From: a phage
NCBI GenBank assembly: GCA_024672315.1
Contig: GCA_024672315.1_4714.1
DNA: 64,000 nucleotides
Reading direction: 5' to 3' (one strand)
The position numbers were made by a program, and so were the translations under genes. Numbering within the stretch: position 1 is the first letter of the stretch; each line of letters opens with the position of its first letter. The notes under the pieces are model-generated. The model was not told the origin of the DNA. It did not search any database and was given only the letters and a program-made list of their open reading frames with translations. Positions 4,768 to 64,000 of the stretch are shown one piece after another.

Positions 4768-4809
4768 ACGGCATAAAAAAGAACCGATCCAGCCGAAGCC
4801 AGATCGGTT
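4768..4809 (-). promoter_or_regulatory. Hairpin plus TTTTTTATGCCGTCC element upstream of the 717-aa gene (candidate terminator/late-promoter module)
   Basis: 8-bp stem AACCGATC/GATCGGTT followed on the coding strand by the U-rich TATGCCG motif, about 60 nt upstream of the ATG at 4706. Confidence 0.45.
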
Positions 4810-5005
4810 AAAAAGGATAATAACTGACAGAAAGATATCGATGATGTTCGTGAAACAAGATCTTCTCTCGTGCACAATGATGCTAGATCAGAGGGAGGTT
4901 GTAACACGAGAGGCGATTCGCCAAAGAAGGAATAAAAAACACGAATCTATCTTATTTCACTGATGGCACTAACCACTCAAAATATATAGTACTGTATGTA
5001 AAAGT

Positions 5006-5419
5006 TTACTGATTAATCAAGTCGTTAGCAACAATCTTAGTGTAACCTGCCTGATTAAGAATCTGATTAATTTTCGTCACGTCGGTCGCATCCTCAATAA
5101 CGATGCTGGGTTTATAGATCAGCGTCTTGGTAACGACGATTGTACTCTCCTTAATCCAAGGAATCCCTAGAATCACATACTCGCCATCGGCTGTAATGAC
5201 CTCGACGTAATTGTATCTCGTCGGATCGTTCGGTACACTAGACGGGAGCCGGGAATAAATCTGTTGGTGAATGGCGTCTACATCACGGCCGTTGCGCACA
5301 GCCGTACGATAATTGTACACGGCGCTAATTTCTACTCCGTTGAAGTTAACCCCAAGTTCTGGGGCGTATACATCAAAACTCACAACAGAGCCAATCTTTT
5401 CTAAATCAGAAGCTGGCAT
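5006..5419 (-). CDS. Hypothetical protein (137 aa)
   Basis: ORF in a co-directional minus-strand gene array. Confidence 0.55.
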   Translation of the reverse strand: MPASDLEKIGSVVSFDVYAPELGVNFNGVEISAVYNYRTAVRNGRDVDAIHQQIYSRLPSSVPNDPTRYNYVEVITADGEYVILGIPWIKESTIVVTKTLIYKPSIVIEDATDVTKINQILNQAGYTKIVANDLINQ

Positions 5420-5430
5420 AATAGCATCCT

Positions 5431-5952
5431 TTATTTAAAAATGTATTCGTATCCGAAGGTCGTCGCCGACCAGACCCGGATAGATGATAGTGTTCCGCCA
5501 CGATAAAACGTTTTTGTGAATTCCATATCCTGGGCAACACGATAATAAACACGTCCGATAATACGCACGATAAGGTTTCGTGATAACGATCTCTCCTCGC
5601 AGTACTCATCGATAAAGTCATCGTCGATATCCGATAAGACAACATCTGCAATTTCTTGCAGTAGATTCCTCATCAGCATCTGCCTTCCTTCGGTACCCCA
5701 CCCAGACAAACAGTAATCGTCTTCTGCCTGACTATAGATGTCGTTAACCGCCTGTTCGAGCAGTTGCTCAAGATAGTAGTCATCGCGTTTTATAACGTGG
5801 CGACGGCGCTCAGTGGCGTATTTTTCCATCCTGTGTTTCTCTTGTTCGGCGTATGTATTAACGACGCCACAGTCTTTTCTGGATCGTCCCACAATGCACG
5901 ACGAAAACTGGATACTACCATAACGGTAGGATAGATTTGTACAACCTCCCAT
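5431..5952 (-). CDS. Hypothetical protein (start uncertain; may begin at internal Met near 5829)
   Basis: ORF overlaps the upstream ORF 5790-6278 by 163 nt in another frame; an internal ATG (MEKYATERR) would reduce the overlap to about 40 nt. Confidence 0.4.
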   Translation of the reverse strand: MGGCTNLSYRYGSIQFSSCIVGRSRKDCGVVNTYAEQEKHRMEKYATERRRHVIKRDDYYLEQLLEQAVNDIYSQAEDDYCLSGWGTEGRQMLMRNLLQEIADVVLSDIDDDFIDEYCEERSLSRNLIVRIIGRVYYRVAQDMEFTKTFYRGGTLSSIRVWSATTFGYEYIFK

Positions 5953-6278
5953 CCGTAACGATGTGCGTTAGTCGTACGTCCGACATTGAACAGACATAGC
6001 TGATTTAAGAAACAGAGCTGCATCTTCGTAAACAACACCATGTCTTCACGTTTAACGTATCCGAGGATATACGCATTCTCGAACGCCTCGCGTGACAAGA
6101 CGGGACGATTAAGATACCGCAACGCCAGTACCAACAACGTTGTTATGCGCAACGGATCTTCTGGGTCATTCATGGTGCTCAGCTCTGCTTGTAACCAGTC
6201 AGGGATAGTAACCGTCAGACGATAGGTATCTGTTCCACGATCAACCACATTCAATGTTGAAAAAGGCAACATATCCAT
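5790..6278 (-). CDS. Hypothetical protein (162 aa)
   Basis: ORF in minus-strand array; small overlaps with neighbours. Confidence 0.45.
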   Translation of the reverse strand: MDMLPFSTLNVVDRGTDTYRLTVTIPDWLQAELSTMNDPEDPLRITTLLVLALRYLNRPVLSREAFENAYILGYVKREDMVLFTKMQLCFLNQLCLFNVGRTTNAHRYGWEVVQIYPTVMVVSSFRRALWDDPEKTVASLIHTPNKRNTGWKNTPLSAVATL

Positions 6279-6735
6279 GAATTCCTTCTAGCTCGAGGTT
6301 GTTCTCGCCGGTCTTCGGTAATAACCCACTGGCCGTTAACATCTGTGTCATCGAGTAGTCAAAGCACGGAAATATCAGGTTAACGGTTTCCTGGATCGCG
6401 TCAACATAACTATAAATGGCTTCATAATACTCACCATCATGATCTACGCTAACCAGTTCCTGACACAGTTCTTCGCTTATCATTTCATATACCGGTGGAT
6501 ACCACGATTGAAATGGTCGCTGCATACGTAACGACCAATACTCGTACGTCGTATACTGAAGCACGTCATATGCCGATACGTTAATGCGGTCGAAGAAAGT
6601 ATACTTGTCCATATGCTGATACAACATCGCCAGCACGGTTTCCAAGCACACCGATATCCGCACGCCGTCATCTTTCCCGTTAAGAAAATTAGGTTTCTGC
6701 CGATAACGCACAAATGCCGACGGCTTCGATTGCAT
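6241..6735 (-). CDS. Hypothetical protein (165 aa, start MQSKPSAFV)
   Basis: ATG at 6735 overlaps the upstream stop in a TAATG arrangement (translational coupling); the track start at 6816 would overlap the upstream gene. Confidence 0.55.
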   Translation of the reverse strand: MQSKPSAFVRYRQKPNFLNGKDDGVRISVCLETVLAMLYQHMDKYTFFDRINVSAYDVLQYTTYEYWSLRMQRPFQSWYPPVYEMISEELCQELVSVDHDGEYYEAIYSYVDAIQETVNLIFPCFDYSMTQMLTASGLLPKTGENNLELEGIHGYVAFFNIECG

Positions 6736-7418
6736 TATTCCACCACCAACCATAACGTCATACTCGTATCTAACGTAAAATTGAAATGCCACCAATCTTC
6801 TACACGTGGAATCCACGTACGAAGGATTTGGTTAACTTCGCTTCGCATCACCGATAAACGACAACGAAAATCGAACTTCTCATCATGGCCGTAGTCTTCA
6901 TGCATGAAAACTTCATCCAGAACGAACTCAAGTTGCATGTCGACATCACGGCCAGAGATATTCCGTTTGTACAAATACAACTCAATCGTGTCGTAAAGCA
7001 ACGTATGAATATCATAATTTCCGTTCGGTGAGAAATAAGGTAACCGCTCATCGAGCATCGAAAACAGATATTCGCTGTAGTTTAATAACGGGATGATGTA
7101 CCGACGCCCTGTCTGTGGTGTGCGAATATGTATCGAAACCTGACTTGGGCGCGGAATAACCGACGGCTTAGAATCGTCTCTCTGAAATTGCTCTAAAGAT
7201 CGCAACAAAGGTGGCCGCATTGTAACTCTCCAACGCCCAATTGTAAGGCCCTTCCAACATGTGTTCCCATACGTGAATAAACTCACTACCGAAGACAGGC
7301 TCCAGCGCCATGGTGAGATTCGTAAGTTCTGACGCGGCCGCATGGTAAGCATCAACATGTCTTTCCATTGACGGATCGTCTTCATTGAAAATACGTTCTG
7401 TATCGCCAGCCCGCTCAA
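6735..7418 (-). CDS. Hypothetical protein; only the C-terminal ~108 codons (from ATG near 7058) look protein-like
   Basis: N-terminal 120 codons of this frame are W/R-rich and low-complexity, while the overlapping frame 7168-7797 looks coding across the same region; see frameshift finding. Confidence 0.35.
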   Translation of the reverse strand: MSGLAIQNVFSMKTIRQWKDMLMLTMRPRQNLRISPWRWSLSSVVSLFTYGNTCWKGLTIGRWRVTMRPPLLRSLEQFQRDDSKPSVIPRPSQVSIHIRTPQTGRRYIIPLLNYSEYLFSMLDERLPYFSPNGNYDIHTLLYDTIELYLYKRNISGRDVDMQLEFVLDEVFMHEDYGHDEKFDFRCRLSVMRSEVNQILRTWIPRVEDWWHFNFTLDTSMTLWLVVE

Positions 7419-7797
7419 TAAGTTCGGTAATGAGATCTGTCCATGTCTCGTGACACGTCATCATTTCCTGCTCTCGACTTAGTATGCCGATGTCTGCGTG
7501 GACGCTGGACTCGAACCGGTCTAAAAGGACCCGAAGAACGTGCACCTTGTCGATGTATTTCACCGTTATCCAAGAAAGCGGTTGCCATCGACTCAACATC
7601 CATCCGGTACTCGGGAACCCCAAACTCATATAGTACGGGTTGCACCGGACCGAAGACGGAGCGACGTTGTTTAAATCGTTCCTTAAGGGCAAGGCCTTGT
7701 TTAATATAAACGGGTTCATTGGCGAGCTGTTCCGCTTTTCGTTTTGCGTGAGCCAATCGAAGTTCTTCCAATTGCCCAAGCCATTCAAATTGTTCAT
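7168..7797 (-). CDS. Hypothetical protein or C-terminal portion of the upstream gene after a frame change
   Basis: Protein-like translation through its stop at 7168; overlaps 7415-8392 by about 380 nt, and that ORF has a low-complexity basic C-terminal tail over the same region. Confidence 0.4.
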   Translation of the reverse strand: MNNLNGLGNWKNFDWLTQNEKRNSSPMNPFILNKALPLRNDLNNVAPSSVRCNPYYMSLGFPSTGWMLSRWQPLSWITVKYIDKVHVLRVLLDRFESSVHADIGILSREQEMMTCHETWTDLITELIERAGDTERIFNEDDPSMERHVDAYHAAASELTNLTMALEPVFGSEFIHVWEHMLEGPYNWALESYNAATFVAIFRAISERRF

Positions 7798-8392
7798 CTG
7801 TTAGCTCCTGGGGACGTTCAACAATCGCGCCAGACGGGCAGATATTGATCGTAATGTTAATTGACGGCATCGCCATCACTCGAGGATTACTATTACGTAC
7901 GCGGACAACGTGTTCGGTTGCTGATTTACGATCGACGCAATACTCTGTTTCTTGGAACTCAAATGCTTTTAACGGCGTTGGTTTTGTTTGACGTTTAGGA
8001 ACGCGGCCAAGATCAACAATATAGGCATAATCGCACACACGTTCTATTCCGTAAATACGGTTATCCGACCAGTTCTTACCAAACAGCTTATTGTGATGAT
8101 AAGACAGATATTCGGTTACCATACCCTGGACAACATCGAAGTCTTCTCGAAATTCAGGTTGGTACCAAATCGGGCCGAGAATATCTGCGAACGATTCATG
8201 ACGATATCGAGGATCATGTCGAGTCCAGGTCATTCTCTGGTTAAGATCGAAATCCACCAACAACTCGGTTAATTGCAATTTTTCCTTCGGAGAAAGCTGG
8301 CGTTGATGATGCAAACTCAGGCAATCGATAAGCGGTAATGAAACCCACGATGCTAATGTGTACAAATCGATCCTGGCTAATCTCTTGGTCAT
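7415..8392 (-). CDS. Hypothetical protein (325 aa)
   Basis: Long ORF; the C-terminal ~45 residues are basic and low-complexity (possible frame artefact). Confidence 0.55.
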   Translation of the reverse strand: MTKRLARIDLYTLASWVSLPLIDCLSLHHQRQLSPKEKLQLTELLVDFDLNQRMTWTRHDPRYRHESFADILGPIWYQPEFREDFDVVQGMVTEYLSYHHNKLFGKNWSDNRIYGIERVCDYAYIVDLGRVPKRQTKPTPLKAFEFQETEYCVDRKSATEHVVRVRNSNPRVMAMPSINITINICPSGAIVERPQELTDEQFEWLGQLEELRLAHAKRKAEQLANEPVYIKQGLALKERFKQRRSVFGPVQPVLYEFGVPEYRMDVESMATAFLDNGEIHRQGARSSGPFRPVRVQRPRRHRHTKSRAGNDDVSRDMDRSHYRTY

Positions 8393-8483
8393 ACTCTTTT
8401 CCTAAGTCCCCATTGTTTATACACACGATATCTGGGAATAGTTAAAATATACGGCGTAAAACGAAGCAGGAGAGTTTCTGACG

Positions 8484-8804: not shown

Positions 8805-8817
8805 GCTTTCTCCTACG

Positions 8818-8848
8818 CGGCATAAAAGCCTGCCCCGAAGGACAGGCT
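8818..8848 (-). promoter_or_regulatory. Hairpin plus TTTTATGCCGCG element (candidate terminator/late-promoter module)
   Basis: Short GC hairpin followed on the coding strand by TTTTATGCCG about 20 nt upstream of the ATG at 8804. Confidence 0.45.
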
Positions 8849-8857
8849 CGATAGAAC

Positions 8858-9058
8858 TTAATAACCATCCAATTTCAATGAAGGATGGTTGACGATATGT
8901 GCGTGTTTTGCTGGGTCATATAGCTGATATGGAAAATAGCCATGCCATTGACGGCCTTGGCATTTCGTACACAGGAACTGACCAGCACTTTGTCGATTCT
9001 CGTAAGCGAGTTCGGTACTATCAACATGACCGCAACGTTCGCAGATAAACAGCGACAT
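8858..9058 (-). CDS. Small zinc-ribbon protein (66 aa)
   Basis: Two CxxC pairs (CERC ... CTKC) spaced about 20 residues apart. Confidence 0.5.
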   Translation of the reverse strand: MSLFICERCGHVDSTELAYENRQSAGQFLCTKCQGRQWHGYFPYQLYDPAKHAHIVNHPSLKLDGY

Positions 9059-10983: not shown

Positions 10984-11510
10984 TTAACGATAGCTTCCTC
11001 CCTCGGTGTTTTCGAGGGAGGTATTTGCCGTTTAAACACTTTCAGCACGTTCGTAAATTCAGCAGCAATAATACAGGCCGAGGTTGATAGCTTATTGCTG
11101 AAAATGAGATCGTCCGGTAAACAATCGAACTGAATACCGTATTGCGTCTTTGTCTCATCAACGATCAATGACGGTGTCGATCTTGTCTTCGCAATGTCGG
11201 TGATATACAAACGTAAAAATAATTCACCGTCTTCGCTATCCATAAAACGATAGGCGTTACCAGAAAACGCAACACATGGTGTAACGATAAATTGAACACG
11301 ATCGTCGATCGGATGGATATTTAACCAACGTTCGATATCATTACTACTCACATTTTGCATATTTACTACGGTAAAAGCAAATAGCGTATCGTGATGCTTG
11401 GAATAATGCAGCACATACGCCGCACCTTTCTTTTTGTGAATCCCTTCAATGTATTCTATTGTCGTATAGCCGGATTTATATAGCTTTACTTGCGGTTTCT
11501 CACTCATCAT
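10974..11510 (-). CDS. Hypothetical protein (start re-assigned to MMSEKPQV)
   Basis: ATGATGA overlap with the upstream stop at 11507-11509; the track start at 11591 would overlap the upstream gene by 85 nt. Confidence 0.5.
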   Translation of the reverse strand: MMSEKPQVKLYKSGYTTIEYIEGIHKKKGAAYVLHYSKHHDTLFAFTVVNMQNVSSNDIERWLNIHPIDDRVQFIVTPCVAFSGNAYRFMDSEDGELFLRLYITDIAKTRSTPSLIVDETKTQYGIQFDCLPDDLIFSNKLSTSACIIAAEFTNVLKVFKRQIPPSKTPREEAIVNQK

Positions 11511-11806: not shown

Positions 11807-11818
11807 GGAAGATCCTCC

Positions 11819-14046: not shown

Positions 14047-14301
14047 GATAGAAATCCTTAGTATATTTGATATGTTGTTTAATTGACATATTAAGTTTAA
14101 AAGAGGTTATGTTTTACGTATTGTTAATAACGTATTCTTATCTCTATTAAGTTATGTTCTATCTAAAGATAGTAAACAGATATAATGCTCCCCACCTCCC
14201 CATTCTCCCAAGTAATACTGGCCTACCGGCCCTCTCCTTTTTAAGGGAGAGAGTAAGCATTCAGTATTGCTCAAATGAATAAGCAAAACAGTATAAACTT
14301 A

Positions 14302-14325
14302 CCGTCTCGAGATAACTCGAGACGG
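14302..14325 (-). terminator. Perfect 10-bp hairpin CCGTCTCGAG-ataa-CTCGAGACGG (candidate intrinsic terminator)
   Basis: Located 27 nt downstream of the stop of gene 14352-14705 on the minus strand, followed by a moderately U-rich tract. Confidence 0.5.
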
Positions 14326-14351
14326 CGTAGTATCTGTTTATCTCTTTTATG

Positions 14352-17187: not shown

Positions 17188-17339
17188 CAATGTAACGGTA
17201 AAACTTTACTGACGTTGGTTATTATTTGAAGCATAGGGCTTCACCCAGGAGTACCATCCCTTTAAGTCGTTTGTCCTCTCCTGGTTAACTGTCGTTCTCT
17301 CACAGTGCTCGACAGACCAAAAATGCTCAGGCCTCATAG

Positions 17340-17368
17340 CCTCCTCTGGGAATGGAACCCAGAGGAGG
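17340..17368 (+). terminator. Perfect 11-bp hairpin CCTCCTCTGGG-aatggaa-CCCAGAGGAGG
   Basis: Downstream of the + gene ending at 17187; followed by ACTATGTTTGCC. Confidence 0.5.
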
Positions 17369-17380
17369 ACTATGTTTGCC

Positions 17381-20006: not shown

Positions 20007-20018
20007 ATAAACTCCTCC

Positions 20019-20045
20019 GATGGAGGGTGCCCAGCACCCTCCATC
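20019..20045 (-). promoter_or_regulatory. Perfect 11-bp hairpin immediately upstream of the terminase RBS
   Basis: GATGGAGGGTG-cccag-CACCCTCCATC located between the stop of gene 20057-21796 and the terminase start; candidate terminator or translational control structure. Confidence 0.4.
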
Positions 20046-20056
20046 GTTGTATTACC

Positions 20057-25330: not shown

Positions 25331-25343
25331 TACGGCATATAAG
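25331..25343 (-). promoter_or_regulatory. TATATGCCGTAAT element (late-promoter-like) without an adjacent hairpin
   Basis: Same TATGCCG core as the hairpin-associated copies, about 20 nt upstream of the ATG at 25315. Confidence 0.35.
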
Positions 25344-25388: not shown

Positions 25389-25401
25389 CGTTATGCCTAT
25401 G
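25389..25401 (+). promoter_or_regulatory. CGTTATGCCTATG element (late-promoter-like) upstream of the 690-aa gene
   Basis: T-rich tract plus TATGCC about 55 nt upstream of the ATG at 25459. Confidence 0.35.
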
Positions 25402-28437: not shown

Positions 28438-28462
28438 CGTAAAAAAAAAGCATATTAACCTC

Positions 28463-28499
28463 CCTTCCTTCCCTAGCCGTCAAGGCCGGGGAAGGAAGG
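28463..28499. terminator. Perfect 11-bp hairpin CCTTCCTTCCC ... GGGAAGGAAGG followed by TTTATGG
   Basis: Between convergent genes (27547-28437 + and 28512-29051 -); preceded by an A9 run. Confidence 0.55.
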
Positions 28500-28511
28500 T
28501 TTATGGTTTAT

Positions 28512-29464: not shown

Positions 29465-29567
29465 AGCGCTAACCCCAAAGGATAAAAATAAAACCTTGAC
29501 ATAACCACCACCGCAACCCCATACAGGGCTACGGTGGGGTCATACAGAGAGACGTGTTAGGTTACAA

Positions 29568-31060: not shown

Positions 31061-31103
31061 ACATCAAAATGACGGCATAAAAAGTACCTCCTTACCCACA
31101 TGG
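31061..31103 (-). promoter_or_regulatory. Perfect 12-bp hairpin plus ACTTTTTATGCCGTC element
   Basis: ACCTCCTTACCC-acat-GGGTAAGGAGGT followed on the coding strand by TTTTTATGCCGTC, about 90 nt upstream of the ATG at 30983. Confidence 0.5.
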
Positions 31104-31244
31104 GTAAGGAGGTTCGTCCATCACGACGAAAGGACGTTATGTGACGCGGTGTCCATAACGGCCCTGGTAGCAGGCATCAAAGATAACAAAAAGGATGTAA
31201 GTTGAGCTAAACCACCTAAATACGGTAACGATTACTTCCGTACA

Positions 31245-35355: not shown

Positions 35356-35430
35356 TCACTTTTCCTTTTAATGTCAGAGCATCGCATTCTTGACATGCGT
35401 CAAGAAGGTATTGCGTTCAGCGAAATAAAC

Positions 35431-35456
35431 GAGCAGGGGCATGACGCCCCCTGCTC
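35431..35456 (-). terminator. Perfect 11-bp hairpin GAGCAGGGGGC-atgac-GCCCCCTGCTC directly after the beta gene stop
   Basis: Followed on the minus strand by GTTTATTTCGC (U-rich). Confidence 0.55.
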
Positions 35457-38400
35457 TTATTTAGCGTCGTTAAAGTAAATATCAACAGCTCGTTCCGTTG
35501 CGTAGAGGAGACCAAGATTCACAGTCCCAACCACTTCCGGTGAACCGATGATACGGTTAGCGATACTGGTGCCACTGAAGATAGCATCAAGGGTGTGCCC
35601 GTCTTCGGTTTTGTTCACACCATGACCCACGGAAGAGACAACGGATTTCGCTTGTGCTGCGAAGGTACCTTTATCACCCATCCCCGCACCAAGGTCGTAA
35701 CGCATGAAAATACGGATAGCGATCTGGTTCTCGCCTAACGGATTACCGTCTATTCTCACGTTACTGTTATTGATACGCCCTGTTGTTGCCTCGCTGAGTT
35801 TCAGTTCCTTGACGCGTTTAGCTCGCGCTTTATCCGCTTCACCGACGAGCGCCGCCATGGTTTCGCTCATATCCTCAATCTGAGCGCGGTACAGTACATC
35901 GATCTGTACAACTTCACCATGAACATCAGCACGTGGGTTATACTGACTCATACGACGTAATGCTTCAACGGCTTCCTGACTCTCATCACTCAGATCAGTT
36001 GCGATCGGTTCTTCCAGTGTTGCAAGAATCGTTCGCGGTTCAACGTGGTCGCCGATTTTCACAAGACCACGAATGTTGAGATGGGCGTCAACGATAAGCG
36101 TACGGCTCTTAATCGATGGTGTTACGAGACGATCAGCAAGATTGTCGAAGATATACGAACTGTCCTCGTGAGTCTCTGGAATATCCAGAATACCGACAAG
36201 AGACAGAACACCTGCGCGCCAAACAACCTGACCCGGGTTCCACCAATCGCGTTTAAAATAAAGACGATGGAAAACCACCACATCCTGATCCTTAACGCGA
36301 TCCCCGACTTTATAATCGGTAATGAGATCATGGGGATAATACTTACCTGGTCCTTTCCCGATTATCGTACCGAGCTGGAAAACCTCTTCCCCTAACTCTG
36401 GATCGTCGTATTGTATCGTAAGCGCGGTTTTGGTGACCTTCTTCACAACACCATCGCCTTGGGCAGCTGCTGCGAAGAGCTTACCAACACGATGCGCGAT
36501 GACAGTCTCACCACCTGTACGCCACGGTTGTACATCGTAACCTTCAGCAGCAATCATGCGGTTGTGTTGGATCCCGACAAAGACCAGACGTTTTCCATCG
36601 TCGCGGTCTACAGCCGGAACAGCTAACGCTGACGTACTCATTACCGATGAAATGCCGTCTGTCTTTTCATCGAATGGTCGTGTTTCACCATATACCGACA
36701 CGATATTAGCATTAGGTGCGAGGTAAGCAGAAATACCTACGTCCCCGCTATCTTTCGTACCCTCTGACACAATACCAACATCGGACTTGTCGTATTCACG
36801 ATCGCGTGCGCGTCGAAGCGATGTCTTTGAACGACCTCCGATACCGGTCATCGTCGCTTCTTCACCCTGCTTGATATCCAACATCGGGTTGGTTTCATCA
36901 ATCACGATGGAAGCACTGTCGTCGAGAATCTGGTTCCAGACACTTACCGGACTGATTGATATTTTCTGGCGATTTCCTTGACTGCTGTTCTCATTCTGAC
37001 GAATAGCACCAACCAGGTCCTTATACACCAATTCAGCGAACTTATCGTACGTTTTAAAACGTTGGTAGTTCACATCGTTCGTGTTAGGAGCCCAATCATC
37101 CAGAAGCAGTTCAACAGCACGCAGTAACAACATGGCGAAATCGGTAGGTTCTCCCATGTTCTGTAGCAACGTACGGCTTACCGGATCAACGAAAAGACGC
37201 TCCATGAGTTCAAGTTCGCGTAAATGACGAACCTTAAGTCCAGCACCATCGACAACGTTAAAATAGATATCTCGATTGTCAAAAGCGCCGCGAGCGTAAC
37301 CGATGTAGTTACGGTATTCGTTAAACCCACCCAGCAACAACGTCGTCATGCGATCGTCTTTACTGAAGATCAAACTTTCGTCATCAAAGCTCACCGCGAA
37401 TTCATCGGGTGCTAGACCCATACGAGAACCGCGAGGTACCGTACGATAGTTCGCTTTAAGATGTTCTAATAACGGGGTAAGTCCACCCAGATAACTTAGA
37501 ACAACACCGACCGGAATACGTACACCCATGAATTCAAGATCGGCGGCTTCGATCGGCATCTTAGCCGCATTGATACCGAAGAAATCAGGGAACGTCCCTA
37601 CAGGTGTTGGTGTTTGTCCTGACTGACAGATATAGAGCTGATTGCGTTTATCGATTGCTAAGAATTCACCCAGCGTGTTACGCGCAAACGTCAGGAGCCC
37701 TTCGGCTAACTGTTCGTTGAACCGATCTTCCCCGATGAACTCCGGCAATGTCTTTGTATCGAGACGTATATCCCAATCAGCAAATTGGATTTGGGTATAG
37801 TTGCGTGCAAGCACAGCGAAGTAATACGGAACTTTGACGGCCGGATCAAAGACGTTACCGCGTTTCAACGTGGTTAAGGGTGAGGATTTATCGTAATACA
37901 TCGCCGTAAGTTGACGTGTTAGCCAACGACCGGCGTTATTAACGACGCGCTCTGAACGTTTAACAAACACCTTACCGTAGGCGGTACTCAACGCAACTTC
38001 AGATGACGATACCTTTCTAATAGGTTTATCAACACGTTGTTTACGCATCCGGTATTTGATGCCGTTAACGACATAAATGCCATCCTTACGAACCTTCGGC
38101 AACATCACCGGGAACGTGGTCGGGACACCGCCTACGGGAGCCAGTTTAATCGTGATGACTTGATAATCCCCCATCACGTCAACAACATCTTCGACTTTAT
38201 ATCCCGTAACAGGGTAACCCGCCTGCTGTACCGCAACAACAGCGGCTGCGATGTCCTTTTGCATTACGTGTTCAACGTAATGTTTATCCCACACCGCAAG
38301 CGTCGATTTACACAGGCTCTTATCGACGATAACATCCGCTTCCGGCATAACCTTTGCAGGAGCTAATTTCGCGGCTTTTGGTTTAACTTCAACATACTCG

Positions 38401-39986: not shown

Positions 39987-40505
39987 CCTTGTCTTCGCCT
40001 CAGGTCGCTACGCTGAGACCGCCTGCGTGGATACGTACATCACAGGCTGCTTGCACTTTCATGCAAGAGGAGACTATATCAAACCGTCAGCTTCACCTGC
40101 TACGGTAACCTACACTTCGAAGACGCTTGTCCTCTACAGGGTGGTAAATCCCTTAGTCGTTGAACCTGCGTTGTTTCACATTCTTGTTTGCAAGAATGCC
40201 GTATTGCTACGCAACAACCAGGCTGCTGATTGCCCATTATCACGCACCTTAGCACCGCTTACGCGGCTTTTCTTTCAGCCTAAGCCTCCGTGGGAGGTAG
40301 TGCATCTCAACTGTTGTTTCCGCCTTTCGGCACCTCATGGGTTGTTGAGCTTTAGGGGTTCCCAGCAATTCGTAGGTTTTTCAAGCACTCCCTTTCGGGA
40401 ATACCGGACCAATTCAGTTAGTAAACAACATTATTACCATCCCTCATTCTTAAGGGTTAATTTTTTAAAATGATAAAATTAATGTGTTTTTGGGCTAACT
40501 CGAAG
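39987..40505 (-). other. Group I self-splicing intron (about 519 nt) within the RNAP beta-prime gene
   Basis: On the minus strand in canonical order: P-like AATTGCTGGGAAC (plus 40358-40370), Q-like AATCAGCAGCC (40221-40231), R-like GTTCAACGACTAAGG (40151-40165) and S-like GATATAGTC (40072-40080); exon 1 ends in U, the intron ends in G; no long ORF on the intron coding strand. Confidence 0.75.
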
Positions 40506-48883: not shown

Positions 48884-48894
48884 TCATTAGTTAA

Positions 48895-48913
48895 GGGCGG
48901 GAGATTCCCGCCC
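48895..48913 (+). terminator. Short GC hairpin GGGCGGG-agatt-CCCGCCC after the giant gene
   Basis: Located 12 nt after the stop at 48883; a weak U-tract suggests attenuation rather than a strong terminator. Confidence 0.35.
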
Positions 48914-48932
48914 TCTTCTTGAGGAATGTTAC

Positions 48933-51074: not shown

Positions 51075-51092
51075 TATTCACCGCATAAACCC

Positions 51093-51124
51093 CCCTCTCC
51101 CTTCCCTGATGGGTCGGGAGAGGG
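51093..51124. terminator. Perfect 9-bp hairpin CCCTCTCCC-TTCCCTGATGGGTC-GGGAGAGGG
   Basis: Between convergent genes; loop nearly identical to the hairpin at 63955-63986. Confidence 0.55.
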
Positions 51125-51130
51125 ATTATG

Positions 51131-52227: not shown

Positions 52228-52264
52228 ACGGCATAAAGCCTACCCACACAATGGTGGGTAGGCT
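52228..52264 (-). promoter_or_regulatory. Perfect 10-bp hairpin plus TTTATGCCGTATTTC element
   Basis: AGCCTACCCA-cacaa-TGGGTAGGCT followed on the coding strand by TTTATGCCGT, about 30 nt upstream of the ATG at 52198. Confidence 0.5.
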
Positions 52265-59309: not shown

Positions 59310-59317
59310 CATAATAA

Positions 59318-59353
59318 CCCACCCTACTACCCCGTTAAGGGCGGTAGGGTGGG
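59318..59353. terminator. Perfect 10-bp hairpin CCCACCCTAC ... GTAGGGTGGG followed by GGTTTATTTGCCGTATAG
   Basis: Between convergent genes 58467-59309 (+) and 59361-59792 (-). Confidence 0.55.
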
Positions 59354-59360
59354 ATAAGGT

Positions 59361-59792
59361 TTATTTGCCGTATAGATGTACCACTCGTTGTGTCGTAGGA
59401 ACGCAGACTCTTACCAGAAGCTTCTTAATCTCCTGACGAATCGTTGCTTTATCATCATAATAAAGCCATGGTGGAACGCGCTGCATTATGCACTGCACGG
59501 CTTCATCGTAGTTCGTCGTCTCATTGAGTAACGTCTCACTATCCAAATCTTTCCATGCAGTAATACCAAGTCGCGCAGCAAACATCAACGCTGAAACCGA
59601 CTCAGCTATCTCCAATCGCTCATTCATATCCGCAAGACCTTTTAGCATGATGTAATTATCATCATGCTGATGTAAAGTGCCATACAAACTTCCGAAGAGA
59701 AGTATACGTTTAGCTTTTGCGGTTAAGAGGAACGACAGGAGAGCGTGTTTCAACGGTTGTTTCTCACGTTCTACCTGTTCGACCATCACCAT
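59361..59792 (-). CDS. Hypothetical protein (143 aa)
   Basis: ORF. Confidence 0.5.
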   Translation of the reverse strand: MVMVEQVEREKQPLKHALLSFLLTAKAKRILLFGSLYGTLHQHDDNYIMLKGLADMNERLEIAESVSALMFAARLGITAWKDLDSETLLNETTNYDEAVQCIMQRVPPWLYYDDKATIRQEIKKLLVRVCVPTTQRVVHLYGK

Positions 59793-59795
59793 TGA

Positions 59796-61322
59796 TTACT
59801 CCAACACATAACGTGGGTTACTGTATATGTTAGCCCATATACCAACGTCGTCTCCTGATTCGATAATCACAGCGAAACGAAACGCAACATCAGATTCACG
59901 ATAAGTTACCGCGTACGCTTTCGTTTCTGGAGATGCTAAATAGCTCAAGTTCAGACGTTGAGGTAGGTCTAACCCCAAGGACATGGTACAAGACGTAACG
60001 CCCTGCTTATCAGGGTTCAGTCTGTAATTCACGTCCACCTTCAGGCTTTTCGTAACCTGCGTAATCGCACTATGCACTTTGGTAACCGTTTTGCCTTTCT
60101 TATCCTTTTCTGTTTCGAAAAGAACATCGGTAATTTCGGTTACAACCAGGCGTGGTGTGGATTCGCGGTTAGCGTCAAGCCATTCATCCAGTAACGTCTT
60201 TAAGAAGTTCAAGGAATCAATCGCACGCCAAGCAAGGTTAGGCGGATTACATGCTTCCATTAAAATGGCTGTGTTCGATCCACCTAGCGGAAGATGCACG
60301 CTCTTACCGAGGCCTGTCGGACGCATCGTAAGATCGCACTCACCCTCAAGAATATCGCGATGATATTGACGATGATGAAGGTTATCCGTGTATGCGATAT
60401 ACACTGACTCCGTTGTCCCATGCTCTAATACCCGAGACGCATGCGTACGCATAATCTCAACAGCATCATCCGGCTTGCTTAAATAGATAACACTGTACGC
60501 ACTATCGCTAATCCTTTTCCCTAACTCAAGACGTCCCTTGTTGTCTTTATCGGTGTTACCACCGAAATAGATGTAGCGGCCATCTTTCGCACGCTCTTGC
60601 TGCTGGTTGGTGGTAAAGTAGCAGCGCGAGAACGTAAAGAACGGGCTTATTTCCGGTTCGGGACTCCAATACCCCTTAGCCGGAAGTTCGCGACGTATTT
60701 GGGTTCTTACAGCCCAGTCCTGGTTTTGTGACAGATATGTTCCACGCGTTGCCAGCATATCCGCACGTTCGTTACCAACATTGCCCTCATGTCCAGGAAC
60801 GTAGCGCAGCGAAATATCGATAGCGTCGCGCTTCGCATCCCTTATCACGCTATCGAGTTTCCGCCACCGTTCCGCATTCATTAACGGTTTATTGTCGGAT
60901 TTAACCCAGTTGTTCTCTCGCCAGTTAGCAAGATGGTTGGTGGCACCTACAACAACATATTGGCTGTCCGACAACAGCTGGATCCGTTTTGCCCCCTTTG
61001 CTTTTCCAAGTTCAATCGCACGTATTGCAGCATCCAACTCAGCCTGATTGTTAGTTACGTTGAAACCCAAAGCCTCTAACTCATCCACGTATTCCTTGGG
61101 TTCGACCAGCACAGCGTCTTTAGGAAAGTCGAGTTTAGGGTCAACATAACCGTATTGCGTTGGTTTGGGCTTCCCACTTTTTGAGGGTTCCAAGGTGCCT
61201 TTTATTTCTTTCACCATATCGTAGGTGTAGCCGTGCACGCCGTAGCCACCATACCCACTCGATGTTGGACGGGATCCTCCATCACAGTAGAAAACGGCAC
61301 CGAGCTCAGTATTTCCTGCCAT
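59796..61322 (-). CDS. RNase HI-domain protein fused to a ~300-aa C-terminal domain of unknown function
   Basis: N-terminal ~200 aa carry RNase HI motifs: YCDGG, TNNQAELDAAIRAIE, LLSDSQYVV and VPGHEGNVGNERADMLATRG (compare E. coli RnhA NNRMELMAAI, TDSQYV, VKGHAGHPENERCDELAR). Start re-assigned to ATG at 61322 (GAGG RBS). Confidence 0.75.
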   Translation of the reverse strand: MAGNTELGAVFYCDGGSRPTSSGYGGYGVHGYTYDMVKEIKGTLEPSKSGKPKPTQYGYVDPKLDFPKDAVLVEPKEYVDELEALGFNVTNNQAELDAAIRAIELGKAKGAKRIQLLSDSQYVVVGATNHLANWRENNWVKSDNKPLMNAERWRKLDSVIRDAKRDAIDISLRYVPGHEGNVGNERADMLATRGTYLSQNQDWAVRTQIRRELPAKGYWSPEPEISPFFTFSRCYFTTNQQQERAKDGRYIYFGGNTDKDNKGRLELGKRISDSAYSVIYLSKPDDAVEIMRTHASRVLEHGTTESVYIAYTDNLHHRQYHRDILEGECDLTMRPTGLGKSVHLPLGGSNTAILMEACNPPNLAWRAIDSLNFLKTLLDEWLDANRESTPRLVVTEITDVLFETEKDKKGKTVTKVHSAITQVTKSLKVDVNYRLNPDKQGVTSCTMSLGLDLPQRLNLSYLASPETKAYAVTYRESDVAFRFAVIIESGDDVGIWANIYSNPRYVLE

Positions 61323-61372
61323 TGTAAACCTCATTAATCATTGTCCGTATGATAGCCCAAAGTTGTACGGTA

Positions 61373-61924
61373 TTACCGATTACCGTCGGTTGACGTTGGT
61401 TGATCGCGATCGACTTTCATTGACCGCAGTTTTCCGCCGTTAATTACACATTGATTGCGTTGTTTGGCGGAGGTCAGACTATTACAGACGTAATAGGTAT
61501 CGATAAAACGTTCAACGCGTTCTTGAAACTCCCTCTCGTCAACTTTATCTTTTTCAAAGGTTCGTAACGCTCGATCAACCTCACCCTGGAGAATCCGGTT
61601 CTGTTCAACCATACTGTCGATTAAACGGCCTCGTACTTCGTTCGATGTGTAGAGTTGACGAATCAGTTCTCGGTTGGTGTCTCGCGCATAACGCAATGTT
61701 GCATTTTCCTGACGTAAACTCGTCACGTCAGCCATCAAGGTAATGATTTTTTCGCCAGCGAATAACGTCACGATACCCAATACGATGAAAAAGCCCGTAA
61801 TCAAGAATATCGAGGACTGTCGAGCTCCATCTCGACGATAGCGTGTGGGCGGTCGCTTACTTCGCCGAAACAACTCGCGAAGAAAAGGGAAAAGCCAGGG
61901 CAACGCCTTGAGTGTAGTAAACAT
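61373..61924 (-). CDS. Membrane-anchored coiled-coil protein (184 aa; start re-assigned to MFTTLKA)
   Basis: Basic N-terminus, one hydrophobic helix (IFLITGFFIVLGIVTLFAG), then a charged coiled-coil-like region; ATG at 61924 preceded by AAGGA. Confidence 0.5.
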   Translation of the reverse strand: MFTTLKALPWLFPFLRELFRRSKRPPTRYRRDGARQSSIFLITGFFIVLGIVTLFAGEKIITLMADVTSLRQENATLRYARDTNRELIRQLYTSNEVRGRLIDSMVEQNRILQGEVDRALRTFEKDKVDEREFQERVERFIDTYYVCNSLTSAKQRNQCVINGGKLRSMKVDRDQPTSTDGNR

Positions 61925-61978
61925 GCGTGTGTCCTTGATAGTATGAAATTTCCAATACAACTTAACCGAGGACGTCGA

Positions 61979-63319
61979 ATGATTAGTATTTTTGGTTTTT
62001 ATACGTACAAAGGGTACGCTAATAACCACCCAAAAACCACGGCGAAATTCGGTGAGTTCAGTCAGCACAGTGCTACGTTCAGTCGCGAGATCGGCATCTA
62101 TTCCAACACGGCGTACGCACGTACGACCTTATTAGTGTTGAATGCCGAAAACGAAGCTGGTGAAGCACAAACGCTGAATGACGACACCGCAGGCCGTATT
62201 CTTCAGGTTGGTCAATGGTTGCTGGAAAAAGCCGCATCGGGCGAAATCCAGGAAGACCGAGACCAGGTTATCAGTTACCTAAAAGACGACTTCACAACGT
62301 ATCTGGATTCTATCGACATCCCAACACCCACCACCGATGGTACAGTCTATCTACCGGCGTGGATCAGTTTCAAGATAACCGCCACCGGCGATGTTGTCAA
62401 GATTTGGTTGTCTGATAGCGTATTCCAAAGTCAATATCCAAAATACGAATATGAAGTCGTTCCCCCTGTTCCTAAGGATCAGTTAGATACCTTCTTCGAA
62501 GATCTGGCAACATTGAAGAAACTGGTTGACAGTCGAAGCAGCGAGAAACTGACCGAAGAAATCAACGAGGTGCGCGACCAATTCCCAGACACACAATTGT
62601 GGACGAAAACCTATAAAGCGTATGATTACACCGACGATTCGAAATACATTAATACCGATTGGACGGTGATTATCTACGGTGCGGCAGGTAACAACATTGA
62701 TAATATCAAGGAGTTCCTGCAAAACTGGATTCTTAGCAATAGCACACACGGACGTCCAGACTGGGAAATCGTTCTGCCGGATCTTTTTATTCCGACAGAA
62801 CACATCTTCATCCCGATCTGGAACCGCCACAGTGCTCCAGAGATGACCAATCAGGCACGTATCTATAGTCCTATCTTCGATGATTCGTTGATGGATACCT
62901 ACCTGAAAAACTTTGCTGATGGTTACGGCGAAACCGCCGAAGTCCGTAAGTCGCTTCAAGCGGTGCCGACGCTGTGGCGCTCGATCGGTTTCTTAAGTGT
63001 TGGTAACTCACGTAACCGAGACGGTAAACTTAAGTTCTACGATCGTTGGCCGCAATACGCGCTCATCAGCACAACCAGCATCGACATTAACCGTATCGAT
63101 GATGCGACACGTGAATTCATCACGTTCACTTACGAAATGCTGAAACTGGCAGAATCGCTCACCGAAGACGACCCGGTACCGTTGGGTTATAGTCGTGTTA
63201 CGCGCGGTAGCAATAGCTTCTTAGCGAAAAGCCACAACGATGTTCAGTATCTCTTCTTAACAAAAGAAGCGTTCCTGAAGAAAATGCCGGATGAAGCCGA
63301 CACACCCGTTGGAGGTTGA
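61979..63319 (+). CDS. Hypothetical protein (start re-assigned to MISIFGFY)
   Basis: ATG at 61979 preceded by GAGGACGTCGA; the track start at 61943 leaves only an 18-nt divergent intergenic gap. Confidence 0.55.
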   Translation: MISIFGFYTYKGYANNHPKTTAKFGEFSQHSATFSREIGIYSNTAYARTTLLVLNAENEAGEAQTLNDDTAGRILQVGQWLLEKAASGEIQEDRDQVISYLKDDFTTYLDSIDIPTPTTDGTVYLPAWISFKITATGDVVKIWLSDSVFQSQYPKYEYEVVPPVPKDQLDTFFEDLATLKKLVDSRSSEKLTEEINEVRDQFPDTQLWTKTYKAYDYTDDSKYINTDWTVIIYGAAGNNIDNIKEFLQNWILSNSTHGRPDWEIVLPDLFIPTEHIFIPIWNRHSAPEMTNQARIYSPIFDDSLMDTYLKNFADGYGETAEVRKSLQAVPTLWRSIGFLSVGNSRNRDGKLKFYDRWPQYALISTTSIDINRIDDATREFITFTYEMLKLAESLTEDDPVPLGYSRVTRGSNSFLAKSHNDVQYLFLTKEAFLKKMPDEADTPVGG

Positions 63320-63948
63320 TTATGGCTGTAACACGCATGACGCCAAGTCCCGGTGCGGTCGGGGTATTCACAGTATCAGCGCCGTTTACCGTTGGTGCGT
63401 CGACGCTATATACCGTTACAGCGTTGCGAAGATTTAGCGAAGTCATCGGTAGTGGAATCGATCTATTTACGGAACTGTACGAACCGTTATCGATAGACAA
63501 ATCCACTTTCGAAGCGCATCTCGAAGCGAATGCTTATCTCGTCACGTTGCAACCAGATTATGGTGCGCCCGTACTGGTACCCGACACGTATATCACGTCG
63601 TACCCAAAGAACGATTCCTTGCGGTATCGTCGCATTATTCTGGGTATCGATTTCGGGCCTCTTCCTCCCGGTCTTGACCTTTCGTATTTAACAACGATAT
63701 TGAAAGGTAAGGCCAGTGATATTCTTGGTGTCGAACCTGAAGTTAAAACGATGGAAATCACGCTCGATGATACCGTTACTCAGGAACAACATCAGATAAA
63801 CGAAGCCCGTCGTCAGGCTGCGATAAAAGAGCGAGATACCATTTACGCACGCTGTGAAACGCAAGAGAAGCAGATAACGGCTTTACTTGCAACCCAAAAG
63901 CAACTTATCAAATTGCTTCAAGACGCCGGAATCAATCCGACACCTTAA
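63316..63948 (+). CDS. Hypothetical protein (210 aa)
   Basis: ATGA-overlapped with the upstream gene; C-terminal coiled-coil-like region. Confidence 0.6.
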   Translation: MIMAVTRMTPSPGAVGVFTVSAPFTVGASTLYTVTALRRFSEVIGSGIDLFTELYEPLSIDKSTFEAHLEANAYLVTLQPDYGAPVLVPDTYITSYPKNDSLRYRRIILGIDFGPLPPGLDLSYLTTILKGKASDILGVEPEVKTMEITLDDTVTQEQHQINEARRQAAIKERDTIYARCETQEKQITALLATQKQLIKLLQDAGINPTP

Positions 63949-63954
63949 CATATT

Positions 63955-63986
63955 CCCTCCTCCTTCCCTGTTGGGTTGGAGGAGGG
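63955..63986 (+). terminator. Perfect 9-bp hairpin CCCTCCTCC-TTCCCTGTTGGGTT-GGAGGAGGG followed by GTTATGCCGTC
   Basis: Immediately after the stop at 63948; same loop family as 51093-51124 and followed by the TATGCCG element. Confidence 0.55.
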
Positions 63987-64000
63987 TTATGCCGTCAAGC

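What the first reader, a model, noticed from the sequence alone, without database searches (positions are those of the whole stretch)
4768..63994. Recurrent module: GC-rich hairpin followed by a U-tract and TATGCCG, 20-90 nt upstream of start codons
At least seven instances share a (U)UUAUGCCG(U) core: 4768-4809, 8818-8848, 31061-31103, 52228-52264 (minus strand, each directly 3' of a perfect 8-12 bp hairpin and upstream of the next co-directional gene), 25331-25343 (minus, no hairpin), 25389-25401 (plus, upstream of the 690-aa structural gene) and 63982-63994 (plus, after a hairpin). Conservation beyond a simple U-tract suggests a sequence-specific signal. As I recall, late promoters of phiKZ-type phages centre on a TATG motif, so these may be coupled terminator/late-promoter units allowing gene-by-gene control in long co-directional arrays. 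Variants after hairpins at 35431 and 59318 read TTTATTTCGC and TTTATTTGCCG.
Basis: partly seen in the sequence, partly recalled or inferred. Interest (0 to 1): 0.6.

Follow-up and report, generated by a model that had tools for sequence, protein, structure and literature searches.

The report
Jumbo-phage terminators with conserved TATG tail
The recurring "hairpin + TTATGCCG" module is the transcription-stop signal typical of phiKZ-like nucleus-forming jumbo phages, here in a close relative of E. coli phage Goslar; it is a known kind of element, and its tail happens to contain the same four letters (TATG) that these phages' own RNA polymerase uses to start late transcription.

Summary
The window is 97% identical to Escherichia phage Goslar (Chimalliviridae). 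It carries about 15 GC-rich hairpin loci (about 20 oriented elements) followed within 0-10 nt by TAT(G/T), often TTATG(C/T)(C/T)G(T). The heptamer alone is only marginally enriched. Its association with hairpins is very strong.

The element matches the conserved phiKZ terminator motif BCCYCCCCHWWDGGGRRGGBYTTATKYYGT, defined from mapped RNA 3' ends (Putzeys 2024). A similar motif is reported in 201phi2-1. I also found the tail in Erwinia phage Ea35-70 and Ralstonia phage RP12, but not in SPN3US or CR5.

In the window the element sits at 5/5 convergent gene junctions, 8/17 co-directional junctions and 0/7 divergent (promoter) regions. That is a terminator distribution.

In phiKZ the mapped 3' ends fall inside TATGYY. 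None of 119 mapped start sites lies on a terminator's own TATG; nearby promoters use a second TATG 5-45 nt downstream.

The "same TATG is a late promoter" half is not supported, though it is not excluded for Goslar.

The unremarked identity between the terminator tail and the promoter core suggests a testable idea: polymerase-specific, pause-assisted termination.

The parts
2482..2552 (.). Bidirectional terminator at the convergent junction gp245(+)/DNA polymerase gp244(-). Hairpin about 2500-2540; TATG tails at 2549-2552 (+) and 2485-2482 (-).
   Evidence: -31 kcal/mol, z -3.1
4768..4809 (-). Terminator: 12-bp hairpin 4782-4809, then CTTTTT-TATGCCGT. It lies 69 nt upstream of the DNA polymerase start.
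   Evidence: z -4.9. Annotated as a putative terminator in Goslar.
8818..8849 (-). Terminator: hairpin 8826-8849, then T-TATGCCG. It lies 20 nt upstream of the next start.
   Evidence: Annotated as a terminator in Goslar. Missed by the T-tract scan.
10997..11031 (+). Terminator after gp233(+) facing a minus-strand gene: hairpin CCTCCCTCG...CGAGGGAGG, then TATTTGCCGT.
   Evidence: z -4.3
14288..14326 (-). Hairpin 14301-14326, then AAGTTTATACTGT. This is a variant tail with TATA in place of TATG.
17335..17374 (.). Bidirectional terminator at the convergent junction gp224(+)/gp223(-), with TATG overlapping both stem ends.
   Evidence: -32 kcal/mol, z -6.1
20018..20046 (.). 13-bp hairpin between gp221 and the terminase gene. 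On the minus strand it is followed by GGAGGAGTTTATATG, in which the ATG is the terminase start codon. This is an atypical member.
28451..28505 (.). Bidirectional terminator at the convergent junction gp217(+)/gp216(-). Hairpin 28463-28499; TATG on both sides.
   Evidence: z -4.3
29500..29542 (-). Terminator hairpin, then (GGT)TATGTCAAGG.
   Evidence: z -6.6. The apex is inverted relative to Goslar.
31072..31113 (-). Terminator: hairpin ACCTCCTTACCC...GGGTAAGGAGGT, then ACTTTT-TATGCCGT.
   Evidence: z -5.8
35420..35466 (.). Terminator hairpin 35431-35456. Tails are GTT-TATTTCGC (-) and T-TATTTAGCG (+).
   Evidence: Annotated as a terminator in Goslar.
51084..51130 (.). Bidirectional terminator at the convergent junction gp203(+)/gp202(-). 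Hairpin 51093-51124; TATG on both sides.
   Evidence: z -3.9
52228..52264 (-). Terminator: hairpin 52237-52264, then T-TATGCCGT. It lies 37 nt upstream of the gp202 start.
   Evidence: z -5.0. Missed by the T-tract scan.
59310..59371 (.). Bidirectional terminator at the convergent junction gp192(+)/gp191(-). Hairpin 59318-59353. Tails are TTATTATG (-) and ...TTTATTTGCCGT (+).
   Evidence: z -5.1. Annotated as a terminator in Goslar.
63955..63995 (+). Terminator after gp187(+): hairpin CCCTCCTCCTTCCC...GGGTTGGAGGAGGG, then T-TATGCCGT. In Goslar the next gene is on the opposite strand.
   Evidence: (z -5.1)
25333..25339 (-). Hairpin-less TATGCCG in the divergent region between two virion genes, with the G 21 nt upstream of the gp219 start. 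It is a candidate late promoter and is not part of the terminator family.
   Evidence: no structure, z +0.65

Best explanation
These are factor-independent transcription terminators of the phiKZ (Chimalliviridae) type. Each has a GC-rich hairpin, often with a pyrimidine-rich 5' arm and a purine-rich 3' arm (CCCTCCC...GGGAGGG). A short U-run follows, and then a conserved tail U-A-U-G-(C/U)-(C/U)-G-(U).

By analogy with phiKZ, the RNA is released inside UAUGYY. The weak U/A-rich hybrid together with the TATG is therefore the release zone. The conserved G(T) lies just downstream of the RNA 3' end, in the DNA still ahead of the polymerase.

Many elements are palindromic enough to stop transcription from both directions at convergent gene ends. 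In long co-directional arrays they partition operons and are probably leaky.

Shown here: the sequence anatomy, the genomic distribution, and homology to an experimentally mapped motif. Inferred: that termination happens in this phage, the exact release point, and which phage polymerase(s) respond.
For: 1. Match to the known motif. The tail TTATGCCGT fits YTTATKYYGT of the phiKZ motif, which was defined from 61 mapped terminators. A similar motif is found in 59 terminators of 201phi2-1.

2. Distribution in the window. The element is present at 5/5 convergent, 8/17 co-directional and 0/7 divergent intergenic regions.

3. Distribution in Goslar. Of 72 hairpin+TATG elements, 63 lie about 40-60 nt downstream of a co-directional stop codon.

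4. The CYG extension occurs essentially only next to hairpins: 23 of 25 intergenic TATGCYG sites.

5. The hairpins are highly stable, z -3 to -6.6.

6. Four of the hairpins are already annotated as putative terminators in the Goslar record.

7. phiKZ 3' ends. For 18 hairpin+TATG terminators they fall -2 to +4 nt from the end of TAT. Eleven of the 18 lie at a Y|G step, TAT|G or TATGYY|G (P=0.004). This includes bidirectional pairs at convergent junctions.

8. Cross-phage enrichment of hairpin+TATG: phiKZ 38/73 stems, 201phi2-1 10/33, Ea35-70 13/34, RP12 21/80, each with P below 1e-6.

9. TATG is unchanged between the window and Goslar in all 20 oriented elements, while the loops vary.
Against: No RNA-end data exist for this phage or for Goslar; only ordinary RNA-seq has been published.

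The U-tract is short, typically 3-5 T interrupted by A. Only 2 of 40 stems are followed by a T5 run. Several elements fail a conventional terminator scan.

The relatives SPN3US and CR5 use plain T-runs, so the TATG tail is not obligatory for this polymerase family.

The YYG extension is more common in co-directional arrays than at convergent junctions, 16/24 against 6/24 (p=0.008). This could hint at a role for the downstream gene. Alternatively, at convergent sites the opposing gene's stop codon often abuts the TATG and constrains the tail.
Confidence: 0.85

Rival explanations
1. Coupled terminator and late promoter. The TATG in the tail is also a start site for the non-virion RNA polymerase (G = +1). 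Each unit would then stop the upstream transcript and restart transcription of the next co-directional gene.
For: TATG is the necessary core of phiKZ late promoters, with the start at the G. The residues of the phiKZ GP123 pocket that read TATG are largely kept in the Goslar homologue: F151, K158 and H331 are identical, and H185->Y and Y406->F are aromatic replacements.

In 19 of 24 co-directional Goslar cases no other TATG lies between the terminator and the next start codon, and the implied leaders (17-50 nt) are plausible. The YYG extension is commoner in co-directional arrays.

TATG is about 2-fold enriched in divergent, promoter-bearing regions (27 observed against about 13 expected). So TATG promoters probably do exist in Goslar.
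Against: The same module sits at every convergent junction, where a promoter would fire antisense into the facing gene. It is absent from all divergent regions.

None of 119 mapped phiKZ start sites is on a terminator's first TATG. Where a start follows a terminator it uses a second TATG or a different motif 5-45 nt downstream.

The CYGT extension is absent from promoter-context TATGs and from the phiKZ late-promoter logo. Hairpin-less TATGCYG is not enriched between genes.
Confidence: 0.12
2. Translation signal. The purine-rich 3' arm (GGAGG-like) followed 4-8 nt later by ATG would be a ribosome-binding site and start codon for a short leader peptide.
For: The 3' arms are Shine-Dalgarno-like. 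For example, 31086-31113 contains UAAGGAGGU, and the spacing to the ATG is SD-like. At 20007 the ATG after such a hairpin is the real terminase start.
Against: The most conserved tail position is the third base of the would-be second codon (G in 19/24), while the first two positions vary. This is the opposite of a coding pattern.

The would-be ORFs have arbitrary lengths and no conserved peptide (sequence). The SD-like arm is locked in a very stable stem.

In phiKZ the RNA ends inside the motif. The element also occurs at convergent gene ends.
Confidence: 0.02
3. A spreading palindromic repeat, comparable to REP or MITE elements or a recombination hot spot, with no transcriptional role.
For: Fourteen near-identical hairpins (Y-run CCTTCCC N4 GGGTTGG R-run) are scattered over Goslar. 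Between the window and Goslar the apical parts of three hairpins are inverted.
Against: Placement is strictly downstream of stop codons and oriented with the upstream gene. The homologous elements are mapped RNA 3' ends in phiKZ and 201phi2-1. The tail is conserved across genera whose stems differ. Copy-and-paste spread and terminator function are compatible with each other.
Confidence: 0.03

Closest known systems
Conserved intrinsic terminator motif of Pseudomonas phage phiKZ (Putzeys et al. 2024, microLife; 5'-BCCYCCCCHWWDGGGRRGGBYTTATKYYGT-3')
   Same: GC-rich stem with a C/T-rich 5' arm and a G/A-rich 3' arm. The tail YTTATKYYGT is matched exactly by TTTATGCCGT, TTATGCTGT and TTTATTTCG. 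The position is after genes, often bidirectional at convergent junctions. The host phage encodes the same two split multisubunit RNA polymerases.
   Different: The host (E. coli) and genus (Goslarvirus) differ. In Goslar the K position is mostly G and the tail is mostly GC(C/T)G. Several window hairpins (4782-4809, 8826-8849, 52237-52264) have unrelated stem sequences. There is no experimental 3'-end mapping here.
Terminator motif A of Pseudomonas phage 201phi2-1 (Microb Biotechnol 2024, PMC11512511)
   Same: The authors report that it strongly resembles the phiKZ motif. My scan of 50 kb finds tails such as TTTATGCCG, CTTATGCCGT and TTTATGTCGT after hairpins.
   Different: Some 201phi2-1 terminators combine two motifs into a longer stem, and the authors discuss antitermination. 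Nothing comparable was examined here.
phiKZ late promoter for the non-virion RNA polymerase (T-3 A T G+1; Yakunina 2015; GP123 pocket, IUCrJ 2026)
   Same: The four bases TATG are identical. In phiKZ some mapped terminator 3' ends stop at TAT|G, the same register as initiation at G+1.
   Different: Promoter TATGs have no conserved flanks and no upstream hairpin. The terminator TATG carries CYGT downstream and a hairpin upstream. No start site maps to it in phiKZ.
Canonical bacterial intrinsic (Rho-independent) terminator
   Same: A stable GC-rich hairpin is followed by a U-rich stretch. Release is predicted 5-9 nt after the stem.
   Different: The U-tract is short and interrupted. It is replaced by a sequence-specific tail, TATGYYG, that is conserved across genera.
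Bacterial consensus elemental pause (G-10 Y-1 G+1; own knowledge of Larson 2014 and Vvedenskaya 2014)
   Same: The two conserved Y|G steps of the tail (TAT|G and YY|G) coincide with 11 of 18 mapped phiKZ 3' ends. For the YY|G site, the G-rich stem arm supplies G at -10/-11.
   Different: This is purely an analogy. The enzyme is a highly diverged phage polymerase, and pausing has not been measured.

Membership tests
phiKZ-type conserved intrinsic terminator | Stable GC-rich stem-loop, typically CCYCCCC-loop-GGGRRGG | tested here: met
   All 15 loci fold at -18 to -33 kcal/mol with z -3 to -6.6. About 10 have C/T-rich 5' arms and G/A-rich 3' arms. Three (4782-4809, 8826-8849, 52237-52264) have other stem sequences.
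phiKZ-type conserved intrinsic terminator | Tail YTTATKYYGT directly after the stem | tested here: met
   TTTATGCCGT, TTATGCCG(C/T), TTTATTTCGC and TATTTGCCGT. The EM-derived Goslar consensus is TTTATGCYGTT. At convergent junctions only TATG is kept.
phiKZ-type conserved intrinsic terminator | Lies downstream of a gene on the same strand; frequent bidirectional pairs at convergent junctions | tested here: met
   63 of 72 in Goslar. In the window, 5/5 convergent, 8/17 co-directional and 0/7 divergent regions.
phiKZ-type conserved intrinsic terminator | RNA 3' ends map to the element | not testable with these tools
   No Term-seq or ONT data exist for Goslar. In phiKZ the 3' ends fall inside TATGYY.
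phiKZ-type conserved intrinsic terminator | The phage encodes phiKZ-like virion and non-virion multisubunit RNA polymerases | tested here: met
   Split RNAP beta subunits are annotated in the orthologous Goslar region and genome. The GP123 homologue aligns at 25-28% identity with pocket residues kept.
phiKZ late (nvRNAP) promoter | TATG with transcription starting at the G | tested here: inconclusive
   The four bases are present, but start sites cannot be tested here. In phiKZ, 0 of 119 mapped starts lie on a terminator's first TATG.
phiKZ late (nvRNAP) promoter | Located upstream of, and co-directional with, a (late) gene | tested here: not met
   34 of 72 Goslar elements, and all 5 convergent-junction loci of the window, have no co-directional downstream gene. 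None lies in a divergent region.
Canonical bacterial intrinsic terminator | Uninterrupted U-tract of about 6-8 after the stem | tested here: not met
   Only 2 of 40 window stems and 6 of 141 Goslar stems are followed by a T5 run. 8826-8849 and 52237-52264 fail the requirement of at least 5 T in 8.

The most novel reading that the evidence does not exclude
The tail TATG is not a coincidence. On this reading, the pocket in the beta-like subunit that reads non-template TATG at -3..+1 to fix the start site (phiKZ GP123) also grips TATG when an elongating polymerase reaches the same register, with the RNA 3' end at TAT and G next.

The resulting sequence-specific pause would give a hairpin with only a weak U-tract time to release the RNA. 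Termination would then be 'addressed' to the phage's own polymerase. It could also leave the enzyme positioned on a start-site motif for occasional re-initiation.
Probability: 0.2. Interest if true: 0.7.

Novelty: new member of a known kind. Interest (0 to 1): 0.35.

Why it matters
For annotation, the result gives a simple, specific signature for operon boundaries in Goslar-like and several other chimalliviruses: hairpin + TATG(C/T)(C/T)G. Conventional terminator finders partly miss these elements because the U-tract is short.

For mechanism, nucleus-forming phages transcribe with two highly diverged RNA polymerases, without host factors and without coupled ribosomes. How these enzymes terminate is essentially unstudied.

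The terminator tail shares the promoter's TATG in several genera (Phikzvirus, Serwervirus, Agricanvirus, Ripduovirus, Goslarvirus), while Seoulvirus and Derbicusvirus use plain T-runs. This gives a concrete hypothesis and natural comparison set for in-vitro termination assays.

For engineering, these are compact, often bidirectional insulators that may be specific to the phage polymerases.

Tried and rejected
1. Treating TATGCCG as a free-standing motif. It is only marginally enriched, and without a hairpin it is not enriched between genes.

2. Looking for a strand bias or flanking consensus of hairpin-less intergenic TATG that would define Goslar late promoters. The counts were 37 sense against 36 antisense, with no flanks. 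Divergent regions show about 2-fold TATG enrichment but no extension.

3. The mini-ORF / SD+ATG reading. I rejected it on the conservation pattern.

4. A co-variation test between tail type and the GP123 TATG-pocket residues across seven phages. F151 and H331 are invariant even in CR5, which uses T-run tails, so there is no informative co-variation. My first choice for the SPN3US homologue (gp222) was only 14% identical and probably not orthologous, so SPN3US could not be scored.

5. Rfam. No family covers these hairpins; the only hit is a group I intron.

6. Supplementary tables of the published microLife and 201phi2-1 papers are not held. I used the bioRxiv supplement instead and read only parts 7, 8 and 13, covering TSS P008-P126 and TTS T034-T076.

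7. Window-versus-Goslar substitutions. The divergence of 2.6-3% is too small for a statistical covariation test of the stems.

Full report
IDENTITY OF THE WINDOW. A 10-kb piece of the window is 97.4% identical over its full length to Escherichia phage vB_EcoM_Goslar. Goslar is a 237-kb nucleus-forming jumbo phage of the Chimalliviridae. The whole window is collinear with Goslar 171,763-237,291, except for one 1.6-kb deletion. The orthologous Goslar region encodes chimallin, PhuZ, terminase, tail sheath, head protease and several split RNA polymerase beta subunits.

THE OBSERVATION. Reading the named sites on the proper strand confirms five hairpins followed by (T)TTATGCCG(T). They are 4768-4809(-), 8818-8849(-), 31072-31113(-), 52228-52264(-) and 63955-63995(+). 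One hairpin-less TATGCCGT is at 25333-25339(-). The near-match at 25389-25401(+) reads TTATGCCT. The two variants are TTTATTTCGC at 35420 and TTTATTTGCCG at 59362.

The heptamer alone is weakly enriched: 14 against 6.8 +/- 2.7, with 1 of 100 shuffles reaching 14. The 9-mer with one mismatch is not enriched. What is far from chance is the coupling to hairpins. Of perfect stems of at least 8 bp, 8 of 40 are followed by TATG (1.3 expected, P=3e-5) and 4 by TATGYYG (0.15 expected). ViennaRNA folds give -18 to -33 kcal/mol with z-scores of -3 to -6.6, while the hairpin-less site has no structure.

A systematic scan raises the count to about 15 loci, or about 20 oriented elements. It adds 2482-2552, 10997-11031, 14288-14326, 17335-17374, 20018-20046, 28451-28505, 29500-29542 and 51084-51130. 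Most of these are bidirectional.

GENOME-WIDE ANATOMY. I assembled the full Goslar genome and checked all 247 annotated CDS. An EM search on the 3' flanks of 98 intergenic hairpins gives the consensus T-T-T-A-T-G-C-Y-G-T-T.

TATGCYG occurs 84 times on both strands. Of these, 25 are intergenic, and 23 of the 25 abut a hairpin of -12 kcal/mol or stronger, against an 11% background in intergenic DNA. Only 2 hairpin-less copies are intergenic against 52 in coding sequence, so there is no enrichment without the hairpin.

Of 72 intergenic hairpin+TATG elements, 63 lie downstream of a gene on the same strand, typically 40-60 nt past the stop. Thirty-four have no co-directional gene downstream.

In the window itself, the element is present in 5 of 5 convergent intergenic regions, 8 of 17 co-directional ones and 0 of 7 divergent ones. 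This is what terminators do and what promoters do not do.

At convergent junctions the facing gene's stop codon often abuts the TATG (TATG|TTA). There the YYG extension is lost but the TATG is kept. The extension is found at 6/24 convergent sites against 16/24 co-directional sites (p=0.008).

WHAT IS KNOWN. Putzeys et al. (2024) mapped phiKZ RNA ends by ONT-cappable-seq. They reported that 61 predicted intrinsic terminators share 5'-BCCYCCCCHWWDGGGRRGGBYTTATKYYGT-3'. The window's TTTATGCCGT, TTATGCTGT-type and TTTATTTCG tails fit YTTATKYYGT exactly. Many of the stems (CCCTCCTCC...GGAGGAGGG, CCTCCCTCG...CGAGGGAGG) fit the stem consensus. The 201phi2-1 study found a motif that 'strongly resembles' it in 59 terminators.

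Four of the window's hairpins are already annotated as putative terminators in the Goslar GenBank record. Neither transcriptome paper contains the string TATG. The coincidence with the late-promoter core seems not to have been pointed out. No 5'/3'-end map exists for Goslar; the published RNA-seq is conventional.

TESTING THE PROMOTER IDEA WITH PHIKZ DATA. I fetched phiKZ 70-170 kb and placed the published coordinates on it, taken from the bioRxiv supplement.

For 18 hairpin+TATG terminators, the mapped 3' end lies -2 to +4 nt from the last T of TAT. The offsets are 0 four times, +2 four times, +3 seven times, -2 twice and +4 once. The RNA therefore ends inside UAUGYY, and the conserved G(T) is just ahead of it. 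Eleven of the 18 ends sit at a pyrimidine|G step (P=0.004 if offsets were uniform), though nanopore ends are only good to 1-2 nt. Bidirectional pairs at convergent junctions (133067/133099, 158210/158242, 114207/114239) are among them.

None of the 119 start sites P008-P126 lies on the first TATG after a terminator hairpin. Two (P049 at 94330 and P075 at 145659) start 5-10 nt further on, at a second TATG. Several others (P016, P017, P041, P054, P078, P099, P104) start 20-45 nt downstream, at their own TATG or at an early-promoter motif.

Closely spaced terminator-then-promoter pairs do therefore exist in phiKZ, but with separate signals.

PROMOTER-SIDE EVIDENCE IN GOSLAR. Hairpin-less TATG in co-directional spacers shows no strand bias (37 sense, 36 antisense) and no flanking consensus. 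In the 20 divergent regions TATG is about twice as frequent as the genome average (27 against about 13), but it lacks the CYG extension.

The phiKZ residues that clamp TATG in GP123 are largely kept in the Goslar homologue gp039. F151, K158 and H331 are identical; H185->Y and Y406->F are aromatic replacements. TATG is thus probably the Goslar late start signal too, and 25333-25339(-) is a reasonable late-promoter candidate, with its G 21 nt upstream of a virion gene.

Dual use cannot be excluded from sequence alone.

PHYLOGENETIC SPREAD. The same stem-and-tail test gives strong enrichment in four further phages:
- phiKZ: 19/38 and 19/35 stems.
- 201phi2-1: 10/33 stems.
- Erwinia phage Ea35-70: 13/34 stems, with tails that are literally TTATGCCG.
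- Ralstonia phage RP12: 21/80 stems.

Serratia phage PCH45 is mixed. Pseudomonas phage EL and a Vibrio Aphroditevirus are weak. Salmonella phage SPN3US (1/49) and Cronobacter phage CR5 (2/49) show no enrichment and instead have plain T-runs.

The GP123 pocket residues F151 and H331 are invariant in all seven homologues compared, including CR5. Tail type does not visibly co-vary with the pocket.

HOW IT MOST LIKELY WORKS. Shown: a stable hairpin, a short U/A-rich segment, a conserved TATGYYG(T), and placement after genes on both strands. Inferred from phiKZ: release of the RNA 5-9 nt after the stem, inside UAUGYY, before a G is added.

I conclude that the conserved tail is the release and pause zone of a factor-independent terminator used by the phage polymerases (confidence 0.85).

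A more adventurous reading is that the promoter-reading pocket grips the same TATG during elongation, in the same register as at initiation, and thereby makes termination polymerase-specific. It fits the TAT|G ends. It is unsupported by the co-variation test, and the pocket is reported to be incomplete in the transcribing complex. I give it about 0.2.

VERDICT. The element is a new member, in a new genus and host, of a terminator class described in 2024. Interest is modest, and is raised somewhat by the unremarked identity between terminator and promoter and by the clade-specific loss of the tail.

Noticed in passing
window 1217(-), 30178(-), 53404(-); Goslar 2567, 113797, 142800, 160791, 166069, 172978, 201944, 226695 (all minus strand): An extended intergenic motif, (a/t)-rich...ttcacggcTATATTACyta(c/g)gtga, whose core equals the phiKZ early (virion RNAP) promoter core TATATTAC. 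One copy lies upstream of the chimallin gene. TATATTAC occurs 8 times in intergenic against 2 times in coding sequence. A variant, TACATTAC, follows two terminators in Goslar.
   Followed up: partly
window 40050-40434(-) and 40411-40504: A group I intron (Rfam RF00028, 63.6 bits) lies between two RNA polymerase beta-subunit ORFs. Relative to Goslar the window lacks about 1.57 kb (Goslar 212227-213796) carrying gp206, a NUMOD/HNH-like homing-endonuclease ORF. This phage therefore has the intron without its endonuclease gene.
   Followed up: partly
window 29502-29542, 31086-31113, 51093-51124: Between the window and Goslar, the apical part of these terminator hairpins (the loop plus the inner stem or internal loop) is inverted rather than point-mutated. 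Pairing is preserved. This suggests flipping or exchange of palindromic cassettes.
   Followed up: no
Goslar genome, 14 sites; window 2500-2535 and 63953-63986: A family of near-identical terminator hairpins, Y-run-CCTTCCC-N4-GGGTTGG-R-run, with a conserved U.U internal mismatch. Twelve of the 14 are on the strand that carries most genes.
   Followed up: partly
window 31086-31113 and many other stems: The stems are built from anti-Shine-Dalgarno-like and Shine-Dalgarno-like arms. For example ACCUCCUUA...UAAGGAGGU, whose 5' arm, from my own knowledge, equals the 3' end of 16S rRNA. GGGAGGG/CCCTCCC occurs 19 times in intergenic against once in coding sequence in Goslar. The reason for the fixed pyrimidine-first polarity is unexplained.
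   Followed up: no
Goslar 27780(+), 93479(+), 49773(-): Some tails are duplicated in tandem (TATGCTGTTATGCT; TATGCTGTCTTATTTCG), as if two release sites were stacked 8-10 nt apart.
   Followed up: no
window 48894-48914: A strong hairpin between the two large plus-strand genes (gp204/gp203) has neither a TATG tail nor a T-run (CTTCTTGAGGAATG...). It is the one co-directional plus-strand junction in the window and does not fit the family.
   Followed up: no
L008 (SPN3US 1-50 kb), L014 (CR5): These chimalliviruses end their hairpins with ordinary long T-runs (8/49 and 11/49 stems with a T5 run, against 0.4 expected) and lack the TATG tail. Terminator style therefore differs between clades of the family.
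   Followed up: partly
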